A DNA stretch of 64,000 nucleotides. It comes from an uncultured Lentisphaerota bacterium. Its GTDB lineage: Bacteria > Verrucomicrobiota > Kiritimatiellia > RFP12 > UBA1067. Location: assembly GCA_946413265.1 (NCBI GenBank), contig CAMKJU010000008.1, positions 1,379 through 65,378 of the forward strand, in the 5' to 3' direction. The translations under genes were made by a program, and so were the position numbers. The notes below the pieces were generated by a model. The model made no database searches, was not told the DNA's origin, and was given only the letters and a program-made list of their open reading frames with translations. This document shows, in pieces, positions 28,394-30,867 of the stretch (positions are counted from its first letter, which is position 1; each line of letters begins with the position of its first letter).

Positions 28394-29164
28394 ATGCAGA
28401 AGTACGGTTCCACTTGGTCGCATGATGAAGCAGTTTTGGCACTTGGGTTATATTTCCAGATGCCATTTGGAAAGATCCACAGTCGTTCATTTGAAGTTCG
28501 ACGATTGGCTAAGTTGATGAACCGTTCCCCGGCCTCACTGTCTATGAAAATGTGTAATTTTGGGCGTCTAGACCCGTCATTGGCGAAGAGGGGAGTTTCA
28601 GGCTTAAAAAACGGCGCAAAGATGGATCAAACGGTTTGGGATGAGTATGTCGGGCGTCGTGATGAGTTGGCAACGCGCTATCATGAGCTGCTTTTGAAGT
28701 TAAAAGGGAATGAAAACTTTGATGATGATGTTGCCATAAAAACGCCACAAGGATTGGATGGAGTGAGGTTGGTGCATTACCGCATCAACCAGTCATTTTT
28801 TAGGCGTTCTGTTTTGTCTGCTTATGACAACGCATGTTGCATAACTGGGTTGACAGGGGCTAAACTTCTTATAGCATCGCACATCAAGCCGTGGTCAAAA
28901 TGCATTGATGGTAACGAGCGGACAGATACGGCAAACGGGTTGTGCTTGAATTCTCTTCACGATAGAGCTTTTGACAAAGGGTTGTTCACGCTTGATGAGG
29001 AACTGAAGGTCGTCTTGTCTGCATCGCTGAAGAATGCGGTTCCGCACGAAGTTTTTACAGATTATTTCATCAGGTACGAGGGGCGGCAGATTGTATTGCC
29101 CGAACGTGGCCGACCATCAGAAGTTTTCCTTTCTTATCATCGTGAAAATGTGTTTGAAGGATGA
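28394..29164 (+). CDS. HNH endonuclease (HNH_2-type), paralog of the 26126 gene with a different N-terminal domain
   Basis: Shared pattern RINQSFFRRSVLSAYDNACCITGL…ASHIKPW…NGLCLNSLHDRAFDKGLFTLD. Confidence 0.55.
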   Translation: MQKYGSTWSHDEAVLALGLYFQMPFGKIHSRSFEVRRLAKLMNRSPASLSMKMCNFGRLDPSLAKRGVSGLKNGAKMDQTVWDEYVGRRDELATRYHELLLKLKGNENFDDDVAIKTPQGLDGVRLVHYRINQSFFRRSVLSAYDNACCITGLTGAKLLIASHIKPWSKCIDGNERTDTANGLCLNSLHDRAFDKGLFTLDEELKVVLSASLKNAVPHEVFTDYFIRYEGRQIVLPERGRPSEVFLSYHRENVFEG

Positions 29165-29385
29165 CATGTGGTATGCAGACTGAAATCAAAAAGTTTACGG
29201 TGGAAGAACTGATAACGGCTTTACTTGCGGCGGCAAAGTCGTCACCGCAAGGTTTGAACGCGCAAGTTCGTATGCAGGATTGGGAATGGAATCTTGAGAA
29301 CGTCATAACGCTCCAGGTTGAGAACGATTCCAACGGTGATGTCCTTATTAGATTCGATCCGAATGAAATCCCATATCATAGATGA
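29161..29385 (+). CDS. Small hypothetical protein
   Basis: ATGA overlap with the upstream stop. Low-GC island. Confidence 0.35.
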   Translation: MTCGMQTEIKKFTVEELITALLAAAKSSPQGLNAQVRMQDWEWNLENVITLQVENDSNGDVLIRFDPNEIPYHR

Positions 29386-29397
29386 GCGAGACTTGGC

Positions 29398-29610
29398 ATG
29401 GAAAAGAAGTATTACATTCTTAAAGTCGATTCTTACGAGGGTGACGAAAGTTCACTGACGGTAAACGTGAATGGCTCGGACGTCATGTATGTTGTTCTTG
29501 TTGTTGAAAGTTCGTCGGCGGAGATTGTCGATTGGGGTTATCCAACGGTCGACGATCTTCTTGCGGCGTGGGACAACGTGACGTTTGAGAACATAAGTGA
29601 GTTTGTGTAA
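29398..29610 (+). CDS. Small hypothetical acidic protein (70 aa)
   Basis: ORF with upstream GA-rich RBS. No similarity recognised. Confidence 0.35.
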   Translation: MEKKYYILKVDSYEGDESSLTVNVNGSDVMYVVLVVESSSAEIVDWGYPTVDDLLAAWDNVTFENISEFV

Positions 29611-29630
29611 GAATAGTGGCGAGGGTGTAC

Positions 29631-29912
29631 ATGAAATCGAAAATCCCAGAGAACGAACGAGCGATTGAGAAACAACTTGCCGCGCGGTTCGCGTTTACGC
29701 ATGTCCATGTGCAGTCCGTTTGTCGTTCGGGAGAAAACGGGCGGCGGCTTCAAATCGATTTCGCTGGCGTAGGTCATCGCATGACGATTGCCGGATTGCG
29801 GCGGCTTTGCGATGATGTTTCATCTGAGGTCGGCGGGACACTTTACGGAACGGTGAATCTTGATTATTCTGGCGATGTCGTGTCAGTTGAAATGATGGTG
29901 GAATTGAACTGA
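29631..29912 (+). CDS. Small hypothetical protein (93 aa; GTG 29616 is an alternative start)
   Basis: ORF in the low-GC island. No similarity recognised. Confidence 0.35.
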   Translation: MKSKIPENERAIEKQLAARFAFTHVHVQSVCRSGENGRRLQIDFAGVGHRMTIAGLRRLCDDVSSEVGGTLYGTVNLDYSGDVVSVEMMVELN

Positions 29913-29964
29913 TTAACGACAACGCATTTCACATGTCTAAAGACTTGGCCATGAGGAAAACAAA

Positions 29965-30867
29965 ATGAATGCGCCCAATATTCAGATATCCCTTCAGCAC
30001 AAATTGGATAATTACAATGACATAAAGTCATTTGTAGAGGCGATCAAAGGTGTTTTCCCTGAACAAACAACTGAAGGCCAAGGATGGATAACGTCTAAGA
30101 CGAGTAATTATGAGTTTTCTTTGTGTGAAAACTATTTACCTAAAATATATAAGGGCACCAAGGACTTTTTAAATGCGATTTACAGAAGGGAACAAGTTCA
30201 ACTTAATAGTTTAATTATCAATAATTATGAGAAGCATGTATATTTGATGCTATTTAGGCCTTCAATCTTAATGTTATATGCGGACGACATTCAGATTTTG
30301 GAGGATTATGCAGACAAAATTCGAACGGCATTGGGGATAGAAGCTCGCAAATCAGGACAAAACGACGGGAAAAACGTAATGCTGTTTTGCGCAAAAAATT
30401 ATAGTGATAAAGTTCTTTTGTCAGGGGTATTTAATGAGAAACTCGTAACGATTATAAGAGATCGACTGTGTGAGATAGAAAAGGCGGTTGCGAATAATAT
30501 GCCTTTGGCTGCAATGTTTCTTATCGGCAGTACACTGGAAGGTGCTTTAGCGATGGTCGCTCAAAAATACCCACGGCGATTTAACACGGCAACGTCGGCA
30601 CCAAAGAAAGAAGGAAAGGTTTTGCCTTTTACATCTTGGGTCTTGAGCAGTCTTATTGATGTGGCTTATGAAGTTGGTGTGTTAAAAAAGGATGTTAAGG
30701 ACTTCAGCGAAAAGGTTCGTGACTATCGGAATTATATACACCCAAATGAACAGGTCAAGCAAGGTTTTTCTCCTACGATTGGGGTTGTGAAAATCTCCCT
30801 ACAGGTTTTAGATTTGGCAATGAATGAAATTGATGATTTTGTTAAGCAGAACAATGTTAATGGGTGA
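29965..30867 (+). CDS. Hypothetical protein (300 aa) with possible C-terminal HEPN-like motif (…VRDYRNYIHP…)
   Basis: Very low GC (~35%). An R-x6-H stretch inside a predicted helical C-terminal half. The HEPN call is tentative. Confidence 0.4.
   Translation: MNAPNIQISLQHKLDNYNDIKSFVEAIKGVFPEQTTEGQGWITSKTSNYEFSLCENYLPKIYKGTKDFLNAIYRREQVQLNSLIINNYEKHVYLMLFRPSILMLYADDIQILEDYADKIRTALGIEARKSGQNDGKNVMLFCAKNYSDKVLLSGVFNEKLVTIIRDRLCEIEKAVANNMPLAAMFLIGSTLEGALAMVAQKYPRRFNTATSAPKKEGKVLPFTSWVLSSLIDVAYEVGVLKKDVKDFSEKVRDYRNYIHPNEQVKQGFSPTIGVVKISLQVLDLAMNEIDDFVKQNNVNG

What the first reader, a model, noticed from the sequence alone, without database searches (positions are those of the whole stretch)
29161..30867. 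Uncharacterised four-gene cluster (three ~70-95-aa proteins plus a 300-aa HEPN-like protein) inside the defence island
These lie between an HNH endonuclease and RadC. They are tightly packed (ATGA overlap with the HNH stop, 12-bp and 5-bp spacers), very low in GC, and match no family I can recognise, apart from a possible R-x6-H HEPN-like stretch (…VRDYRNYIHP…) in the 300-aa protein. Small-protein plus HEPN arrangements are typical of abortive-infection or toxin-antitoxin modules. This is a candidate for an undescribed defence module.
Basis: inference. Interest (0 to 1): 0.6.

Follow-up and report, generated by a model that had tools for sequence, protein, structure and literature searches.

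The report
Lone HEPN RNase cassette, unrelated small genes
The four genes are real but do not form one system. The 300-aa protein is a single-gene, probably RNA-cutting (HEPN) defence cassette dropped into a recombination hotspot of a defence island, and the three small genes belong to the neighbouring restriction enzyme or to the island's conserved backbone.

Summary
All four ORFs exist as described and are under purifying selection. None matches Pfam, PADLOC, NCBIfam or PHROGs. The gene set is not inherited as a unit.

- **p74** occurs only with the upstream HNH_2 enzyme.
- **p70 and p93** are backbone genes. In "empty" relatives the p93 stop overlaps the RadC start (TGATG).
- **The 300-aa gene** is a ~1-kb cassette (GC 0.38) between a 24-bp RadC 5' remnant and the intact RadC. 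In relatives the same slot holds a 449/489-aa protein, a 117-aa protein or nothing.
- **Full-length homologues** at 41-58% identity sit in unrelated neighbourhoods without the small genes.

R252-x2-R255-N-Y-I-H259-P, R167 and E170 are invariant in 80 relatives or nearly so in 100. The AlphaFold model (pLDDT 86.8) has a C-terminal helical domain whose best PDB matches are HEPN proteins, led by RnlA. Forty of 80 relatives hit Pfam DUF4145 weakly. At least 593 species genomes encode the domain, often next to restriction-modification genes.

Most likely this is a stand-alone, AbiJ/RnlA-like abortive-infection RNase with a new N-terminal domain. That makes it a new variant of a known kind, of modest interest.

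The parts
28394..29164 (+). HNH_2b, a type IV-like HNH restriction endonuclease. It is a context gene and the true partner of p74.
   Evidence: Pfam HNH_2 E = 1.1e-13. PADLOC HNH model PDLC04132 E = 3.3e-83.
29161..29385 (+). p74, a small acidic protein (pI 4.6) whose likely start is ATG 29173. It is an accessory of the HNH_2b cassette and is not linked to the HEPN gene.
   Evidence: It directly follows an HNH_2b homologue in every locus that has it (L019-L024, L120-L122). It is absent wherever HNH_2b is absent (L001-L006, L013, L015, L123). There are 41 clusters at 77-97% identity, most starting at M5. dN/dS is 0.07. No family or PDB match.
29398..29610 (+). p70, a very acidic (pI 4.05) conserved backbone gene of unknown function.
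   Evidence: Present at 75-98% identity in relatives whose upstream and downstream cargo differ. In L019-L024 it directly abuts a RadC 5' copy. dN/dS is 0.09-0.20. No family, plasmid or PDB match.
29631..29912 (+). p93, a conserved backbone gene. In empty sites it is translationally coupled to RadC. The GTG at 29616 is the mechanical ORF start.
   Evidence: 136 close homologue clusters but only 23 clusters at 50% identity in 1.84 billion representatives. In L030, L031 and L032 its stop overlaps the RadC start as TGATG. Downstream it has the 300-aa gene, a 449/489-aa gene, a 117-aa gene or nothing. dN/dS is 0.22-0.30. The AF2 model has pLDDT 88.8 and an alpha-beta-beta-alpha-beta-beta fold with no significant fold match.
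29913..29936 (+). Degenerate remnant of the RadC 5' end (TTAACGACAACGCATTTCACATGT). It marks the left edge of the inserted cassette.
   Evidence: Direct comparison with the intact RadC starts in L030-L032 and with window 30942-30965. DNA homology with relatives that carry other cargo ends at 29936.
29965..30867 (+). p300, a two-domain protein. It has a new alpha/beta N-terminal domain (aa 1-125), a disordered linker (aa 128-147) and a DUF4145-like HEPN domain (aa 158-297).
   Evidence: AF2 pLDDT 86.8. The helical hits from Foldseek are all HEPN proteins: RnlA 6y2p E = 0.02; 1ylm and 1ufb probability 1.0. 40 of 80 relatives hit PF13643, best E = 2.4e-5. The N-terminal domain is found only in about 26 clusters and is not homologous to AbiJ-NTD3.
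30463..30474 (+). R167-x2-E170 on the first HEPN helix, predicted to contribute to catalysis or substrate binding.
   Evidence: R167 is invariant in all three alignments. E170 is invariant in A1 and A6 and at least 90% conserved in A2. It parallels RnlA R255/E258 (PMC8266594).
30718..30744 (+). R252-D-Y-R255-N-Y-I-H259-P260, the HEPN Rx4-6H-type motif (R-x6-H) and predicted RNase active site.
   Evidence: Invariant in 24 and in 80 relatives and at least 90% conserved in 100. The pattern R[DG][FY]RNYIHP retrieved at least 599 stretches from species genomes, 593 confirmed by tblastn.
30942..31811 (+). RadC-like JAB protein, a backbone gene and the right-hand anchor of the cargo slot. ATG 30942 is the conserved start.
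   Evidence: Pfam RadC E = 1.2e-26. Its first 24-137 bp recur as truncated copies in front of each cargo gene in relatives.

Best explanation
The region is a mosaic recombination hotspot in a defence island, not a four-gene system.

**Backbone.** The backbone is p70-p93-RadC. Cargo is gained upstream of RadC, and each gain leaves a truncated copy of the RadC 5' end.

**The 300-aa gene.** It is one such cargo: a ~1-kb, low-GC, single-gene cassette (about 29937-30941). Its product is a stand-alone defence protein built like AbiJ or RnlA. An N-terminal alpha/beta domain acts as sensor or RNA-binding module (inferred). A C-terminal DUF4145-like HEPN domain would dimerise into a composite RNase site from R167, E170, R252/R255 and H259 (inferred by analogy with RnlA). 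On infection it would cut RNA and arrest the cell, aborting the infection (inferred, not tested).

**The small genes.** p74 is an accessory of the upstream HNH_2 restriction enzyme. p70 and p93 are conserved backbone genes of unknown function whose natural downstream partner is RadC.
For: **Independence of the genes**
- Relatives with 94% identical p300 carry different cargo upstream: NUDIX plus an SLFN-type helicase, or McrBC.
- p93 is followed by a 449/489-aa protein, a 117-aa protein or directly by RadC in other elements.
- In empty sites the p93 stop and the RadC start overlap.
- p300 homologues at 41-58% identity lie next to Dam methylase, HipBA, or kinase/Fic genes without the small ORFs.
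- dS is 0.05 for p300 against 0.45 for p93 in the same pair of elements.
- GC is 0.38 for p300 against 0.51 for p93.

**HEPN assignment**
- The RxxRNYIHP motif plus R167/E170 are invariant or nearly so.
- The AF2 helical domain matches HEPN structures.
- 40 of 80 relatives hit DUF4145, best E = 2.4e-5.
- The same four residue types are catalytic in RnlA (PMC8266594).

**Defence role**
- 74 operon-like neighbours of family members are enriched in type I S subunits (7), DNA methylases (6+4+4), ResIII (4) and other HEPN proteins. This is the pattern described for DUF4145 and AbiJ HEPN proteins (PMC3710099).
- The related p70-RadC slot in relatives holds another HEPN protein, EMARD_N/DUF4209.
Against: - There is no experimental evidence of RNase activity, toxicity or phage protection.
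- p300 itself does not reach any Pfam or PADLOC threshold.
- All Foldseek E-values exceed 0.001.
- p93 and p300 are adjacent in every element of this island family that carries p300. A local functional link therefore cannot be fully excluded.
- How a lone HEPN toxin would be kept silent is inferred, not shown.
Confidence: 0.62

Rival explanations
1. p93, possibly with p70, is a small antitoxin or regulator, and p300 is its HEPN toxin. This would be a two- or three-gene toxin-antitoxin or abortive-infection module.
For: p93 and p300 are adjacent, on the same strand and 52 bp apart in the window and in L001-L006, L015-L018 and L038. HEPN toxins such as RnlA and HepT normally have a protein antitoxin (PMC8266594). 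No promoter-like or terminator-like site separates the two genes.
Against: - p93 occurs with other downstream genes or directly coupled to RadC.
- Full-length p300 homologues at 41-58% identity, and about 590 more distant family members, have no p93-like neighbour.
- The p93 family has only 23 clusters in 1.84 billion representatives, whereas the HEPN family is found across many phyla.
- Divergence is discordant: dS 0.05 against 0.45.
Confidence: 0.08
2. p300 is a second-line effector that works with the neighbouring restriction enzymes (HNH_2a, HNH_2b, GmrSD) rather than as an autonomous abortive-infection protein. It would trigger RNA cleavage when restriction fails, the HEPN-with-R-M coupling proposed by Anantharaman et al.
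For: Family members are often embedded in R-M operons. One 55% identical homologue directly follows a Dam-type methylase. The window gene lies among type IV restriction genes. The model is stated in PMC3710099.
Against: The flanking restriction genes differ between elements that carry nearly identical p300. Some homologues sit next to HipBA, kinase or Fic genes with no R-M genes. No specific partner is conserved.
Confidence: 0.17
3. p300 is a selfish addiction or stabilisation toxin, or an inactive or regulatory HEPN protein. It would be carried by the island without an anti-phage role.
For: It behaves as a mobile, recently exchanged cassette. HEPN domains also occur in non-defence roles (PMC3710099).
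Against: All catalytic-type residues are strictly conserved across phyla, which argues for an active enzyme. Neighbours are dominated by defence genes. No cognate antitoxin is evident.
Confidence: 0.1

Closest known systems
DUF4145 (PF13643) family of HEPN domains
   Same: It is an all-helical C-terminal domain with a conserved R...N..H motif. Forty of 80 family members give weak PF13643 hits, best E = 2.4e-5. It sits in R-M and McrBC contexts, as described for DUF4145 (PMC3710099).
   Different: The window protein itself gives no PF13643 hit. Its motif is the fixed nonamer R[DG][FY]RNYIHP. The family forms a distinct sub-branch of about 270-300-aa two-domain proteins.
AbiJ (Lactococcus Abi-859; Abi_C HEPN with AbiJ-NTD domains)
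   Same: It is a single-gene architecture with a variable N-terminal domain plus a C-terminal HEPN RNase. The ~280-aa cousins of p300 carry an AbiJ-NTD3-type N-terminus that matches the N-terminal parts of the PADLOC Stk2 and AbiJ models.
   Different: There is no Abi_C hit and no match to the HEPN part of the PADLOC AbiJ model. The p300 N-terminal domain is not homologous to AbiJ-NTD3, with an hhalign probability of 0.7%.
RnlA/LsoA HEPN toxins (RnlAB, LsoAB)
   Same: RnlA is the best Foldseek PDB hit over the whole length (6y2p_A, E = 0.02). Both have alpha/beta N-terminal domains followed by HEPN. The same four conserved residue types occur: R-x2-E on the first helix and R...H later, as in RnlA R255/E258/R318/H323 (PMC8266594).
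   Different: There is no sequence similarity, TM-scores are low (0.21-0.24), and p300 has one N-terminal domain instead of two. No RnlB-like antitoxin gene lies downstream, where the conserved backbone gene RadC sits. A TBP-like fold for the N-terminal domain could not be confirmed.
HepT-MntA (HEPN-MNT) type II/VII toxin-antitoxin
   Same: The HEPN fold is shared: 7ae8, 6m6u and 7bxo are among the Foldseek hits.
   Different: There is no adjacent minimal nucleotidyltransferase gene. p300 is twice the size and has an extra N-terminal domain.

Membership tests
HEPN superfamily | Conserved Rx4-6H motif | tested here: met
   R252-x6-H259, with R255-N256 inside it, is invariant in 24 and in 80 relatives and at least 90% conserved in 100.
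HEPN superfamily | All-alpha helical-bundle fold similar to solved HEPN domains | tested here: inconclusive
HEPN superfamily | Metal-independent RNase activity | not testable with these tools
   This needs biochemistry.
DUF4145 (PF13643) | Match to the Pfam model at its gathering score | tested here: inconclusive
   The window protein gives no hit at E <= 1. 7 of 24 and 40 of 80 relatives give sub-threshold hits, best E = 2.4e-5.
AbiJ | Abi_C-type HEPN domain, or a match to the PADLOC AbiJ model over the HEPN part | tested here: not met
   There is no Abi_C hit in 24 or 80 members. PADLOC AbiJ matches only the N-terminal region of the cousins and nothing in p300.
AbiJ | One of the AbiJ-NTD1-5 N-terminal domains | tested here: not met
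   The p300 N-terminal domain against the cousins' AbiJ-NTD3 gives an hhalign probability of 0.7%. p300 has no Pfam AbiJ_NTD hit.
RnlA/LsoA toxin-antitoxin | Cognate antitoxin gene (rnlB/lsoB-like) immediately downstream | tested here: not met
   The downstream gene is the backbone gene RadC. Downstream genes differ among homologues.
RnlA/LsoA toxin-antitoxin | TBP-like N-terminal domain(s) preceding HEPN | tested here: inconclusive
HEPN-MNT toxin-antitoxin | Adjacent minimal nucleotidyltransferase | tested here: not met
   No nucleotidyltransferase domain appears in any flanking ORF.
   The genes assort independently.

The most novel reading that the evidence does not exclude
The RadC 5' end, together with the p70-p93 anchor, could be a dedicated cassette-acceptor site. 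It would be an integron-like capture mechanism that stacks single-gene defence cassettes upstream of RadC, with each capture duplicating the RadC start. The cassettes seen include the p300 HEPN protein, EMARD_N/DUF4209 HEPN, the 449/489-aa protein and YhcG. p300 would then be one member of a shuffled library of lone effectors.
Probability: 0.1. Interest if true: 0.6.

Novelty: new variant of a known kind. Interest (0 to 1): 0.3.

Why it matters
The result removes a false lead, an "undescribed four-gene module". In its place is a defined, testable object: a widespread HEPN sub-family with the fixed motif RDFRNYIHP. The family is absent from Pfam and PADLOC at threshold, is found in at least 593 species genomes, and here is fused to an N-terminal domain seen in only about 26 protein clusters.

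If p300 protects against phage on its own, it would add a single-gene abortive-infection family to defence-finder catalogues. It would also offer a compact, antitoxin-free relative of RnlA for studying how lone HEPN RNases are kept silent.

The mosaic of p70-p93-RadC anchors is a clean example of how defence cargo is swapped at a hotspot.

Tried and rejected
**Searches that found nothing**
- Pfam, PADLOC, NCBIfam and PHROGs on all four ORFs gave no significant hits.
- Sequence searches of the PDB with profiles of the p300 family, the p93 family, p70 and p74 found nothing meaningful.
- tblastn of p74, p70 and p93 against plasmids gave no match. p300 against phages gave no match. Against plasmids it found only 8 distant hits to the C-terminal domain.
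- Foldseek of p300 against viral structures found nothing significant.
- Foldseek of the p93 model found only generic two-layer alpha/beta hits with E >= 0.02.
- Pfam on remote p93 relatives and on the alternative cargo proteins (489, 407 and 133 aa) was uninformative.

**Ideas rejected**
- An RNA antitoxin of the ToxI type: there are no Rfam hits and no tandem repeats in 28000-32000.
- A fixed att site at RadC: the remnant length differs with each cargo, from 24 to 137 bp, and one remnant is an internally deleted RadC.
- Homology of the p300 N-terminal domain to AbiJ-NTD3.

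Full report
**1. Observation**

The ORF list and the sequence confirm four same-strand ORFs between an HNH_2 endonuclease (28394-29164) and a RadC-like gene:
- 29161-29385 (74 aa, "p74")
- 29398-29610 (70 aa, "p70")
- 29616-29912 (98 aa from GTG)
- 29965-30867 (300 aa, "p300")

The ATGA overlap with the HNH stop and the 12-bp and 5-bp spacers are as described. Two start codons need correction. All homologues of the third ORF start at MKSK, so ATG 29631 (93 aa, "p93") with a GAGGGTG ribosome-binding site is the likely start. Most p74 homologues start at M5, which is ATG 29173.

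GC is 0.38 for p300, 0.45 for p74 and p70, and 0.51 for p93, against about 0.60 in the surrounding chromosome. None of the four has a significant match in Pfam, PADLOC, NCBIfam or PHROGs. Pairwise dN/dS values of 0.07-0.30 show that the three small ORFs are genuine coding genes.

**2. The gene set is not a unit**

I compared contigs that encode identical or related proteins.

*p300 with different upstream cargo.* Elements with 94% identical p300 keep HNH_2a, p70, p93, p300 and RadC. Between HNH_2a and p70 they carry NUDIX plus an SLFN-type helicase, or McrBC. The window instead carries a homing-endonuclease-like gene, p83, HNH_2b and p74.

*p74.* It is present only where HNH_2b is present (L019-L024, L120-L122) and absent wherever HNH_2b is absent. 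It belongs to that restriction cassette.

*p70 and p93.* These are conserved anchors.
- p93 has 136 close homologue clusters.
- Downstream of p93 lies p300, a 449/489-aa protein, a 117-aa protein, or RadC directly.
- In the "empty" loci L030, L031 and L032 the p93 stop and the RadC start overlap as TGATG. L037 shows the same direct adjacency by blastn. The ancestral operon is therefore p70-p93-RadC.

*Left and right edges of the p300 insert.* In the window, a 24-bp degenerate copy of the RadC 5' end (29913-29936) follows p93. Then comes the p300 gene, then the intact RadC start at 30942. DNA homology to relatives with other cargo ends exactly at 29936 and resumes at about 30940.

*RadC remnants in relatives.* Every cargo gene in this slot is preceded by a truncated RadC 5' copy. 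Its length depends on the cargo:
- 115 bp before an EMARD_N/DUF4209 protein
- 91 bp before a 407-aa protein
- 137 bp before YhcG
- about 45-50 bp before the 449/489-aa protein

One remnant is an internally deleted RadC. This points to recombination between RadC copies followed by decay, not to a fixed attachment site.

*Recent exchange of p300.* Between the window and L001, synonymous divergence is 0.05 for p300 and 0.45 for the adjacent p93. p300 was therefore exchanged recently between diverged backbones.

*Distant full-length homologues.* Homologues of p300 at 41-58% identity lie after a Dam-type methylase, near HipBA, after a Ser/Thr kinase, or in a Victivallaceae MAG. None has p74, p70 or p93 nearby.

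**3. What p300 is**

*Conserved residues.* The protein search gave about 26 full-length relatives. It also gave many proteins of about 280 aa that share only the C-terminal 140 residues. R252-x2-R255-N-Y-I-H259-P260, R167, E170 and G188-S-x-L-E192 are invariant in alignments of 24 and 80 sequences. They are invariant or at least 90% conserved in the alignment of 100.

*Structure.* The AlphaFold model has mean pLDDT 86.8. It shows an alpha/beta N-terminal domain (aa 1-122), a disordered linker (aa 128-147) and a helical C-terminal domain (aa 158-297). Foldseek against the PDB returns only HEPN proteins for the helical part:
- RnlA 6y2p, E = 0.02
- YutE 1ylm and TT1696 1ufb, probability 1.0, TM up to 0.70
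- HepT 7ae8, 6m6u and 7bxo
- TM0613 1o3u

No E-value is below 0.001.

*Link to DUF4145.* The window protein does not hit Pfam. However, 7 of 24 and 40 of 80 relatives hit DUF4145 (PF13643, HEPN clan), with a best E of 2.4e-5.

*Distribution and neighbours.* The motif R[DG][FY]RNYIHP retrieved at least 599 stretches from 185,579 species genomes, and 593 were confirmed as relatives. They span many bacterial phyla and include archaea. Among 74 same-strand neighbours within 100 bp, the commonest families are:
- type I S subunits (7)
- N6_N4 methylases (6), N6 methylases (4) and Eco57I methylases (4)
- ResIII (4)
- ApeA HEPN (3) and DUF3644 (2)

This is the context described for DUF4145 and AbiJ-type HEPN proteins (PMC3710099).

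*N-terminal domains.* The cousins' N-terminal domain matches AbiJ_NTD3 and the N-terminal parts of the PADLOC Stk2 and AbiJ models. The p300 N-terminal domain is different, with an hhalign probability of 0.7%. It is confined to the ~26 full-length clusters.

*Parallel with RnlA.* The invariant R-x2-E plus R...H set parallels the catalytic R255, E258, R318 and H323 of RnlA. RnlA also combines alpha/beta (TBP-like) domains with HEPN and needs canonical HEPN dimerisation for activity (PMC8266594).

**4. Mechanism**

The following is shown: p300 is a mobile single-gene cassette, and it encodes a HEPN-type domain with strictly conserved catalytic-type residues in a family tied to defence loci.

The following is inferred. 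The protein dimerises through HEPN to form a composite RNase site. The N-terminal domain senses a phage cue or binds RNA and restrains the nuclease in uninfected cells. Activation causes RNA cleavage and abortive infection.

The small genes have no assigned function:
- p74 is an acidic accessory of HNH_2b.
- p70 (pI 4.05) and p93 are backbone genes coupled to RadC.
- p93 has an alpha-beta-beta-alpha-beta-beta fold (pLDDT 88.8) with no significant structural match. Only 23 clusters are found in 1.84 billion representatives.

**5. Rivals**

- *A p93-p300 toxin-antitoxin pair.* This is disfavoured by the assortment data above, but local adjacency keeps it at about 0.08.
- *Functional coupling to neighbouring restriction enzymes.* This fits the family's R-M context but lacks a conserved partner (about 0.17).
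- *A purely selfish or inactive HEPN protein.* This is unlikely given the residue conservation (about 0.1).
- *An RNA antitoxin.* This is excluded at the level of Rfam and tandem repeats.

**6. Comparison and novelty**

p300 works like AbiJ or RnlA in having an N-terminal domain plus a HEPN RNase. It fails the membership tests for both:
- no Abi_C hit and no AbiJ-NTD
- no downstream antitoxin
- TBP-like fold unconfirmed

It is best placed as a divergent DUF4145-like HEPN protein with a new N-terminal domain, which is a new variant of a known kind. The four-gene module is not real. Interest is modest (0.3).

The most novel reading still open is an integron-like capture site at the RadC 5' end. 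The variable breakpoints make it unlikely (about 0.1).

**7. Limits**

Noticed in passing
window 30942-31076; L019 4520-4634 and 6535-6798; L021 1612-1702, 2965-3101 and 4337-4538; L013 8957-9133: Truncated copies of the RadC 5' end (24-137 bp, 90-94% identical) precede each variable cargo gene upstream of RadC in related elements. One copy is an internally deleted RadC (5' 93 bp plus 3' 83 bp). RadC duplication and decay appear to drive cargo turnover at this hotspot.
   Followed up: partly
L030 1320-1345; L031 4560-4580; L032 850-870: In "empty-site" relatives the p93 stop overlaps the RadC start (TGATG). This implies a conserved p70-p93-RadC operon whose function is unknown.
   Followed up: partly
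window 26126-26980, 26977-28128, 28106-28357: There is a second HNH_2 endonuclease (HNH_2a, PADLOC HNH E = 2.7e-50). An ATGA overlap follows it, leading into a 383-aa homing-endonuclease-like protein (phrog_655, E = 6e-40). The homing-endonuclease-like gene is absent from relatives L001-L006 and L013. p83 (28106-28357) is another conserved anchor, found in L013 with different cargo.
   Followed up: partly
window 24174-24260 (-), 24413-25767: A tRNA-Ser (anticodon AGA) lies immediately upstream of an AbiEi/AbiEii pair. It is a possible integration site and left boundary of the low-GC defence island. Housekeeping genes (LepA, PFK) resume at about 49.1 kb.
   Followed up: no
window 31836-33581, 33734-34549, 36685-37542, 43085-43585: Downstream of RadC lie a GmrSD type IV restriction enzyme, a DUF2971 protein, a polyvalent-protein-type kinase and an NYN-domain protein. 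These are further defence or mobile-element cargo.
   Followed up: no
L019 4691-6535; L021 1736-2959; L013 7432-8901; L123 7457-8806: Alternative occupants of the cargo slots upstream of RadC (after p70 or after p93) include a 614-aa EMARD_N (PF13910/DUF4209, itself a HEPN family) protein. There is also a 407-aa protein with no Pfam hit, and a 449/489-aa protein with no Pfam hit (87% identical between two elements whose p93 genes are only 70% identical).
   Followed up: partly
P0272, P0280, P0281: Three long proteins (789-1570 aa) match the p93 profile in 3-6 repeated stretches covering p93 residues ~30-90. This may be a repeat-containing relative of the p93 beta-hairpin unit or a compositional artefact.
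   Followed up: no
L007-L012: A 55% identical p300 homologue lies directly downstream of an AAA_15/AAA_21 ATPase, a 232-aa protein and a Dam-type methylase, next to a CBASS locus (SAVED, SMODS). It may be a different composite system that uses the same HEPN protein.
   Followed up: no
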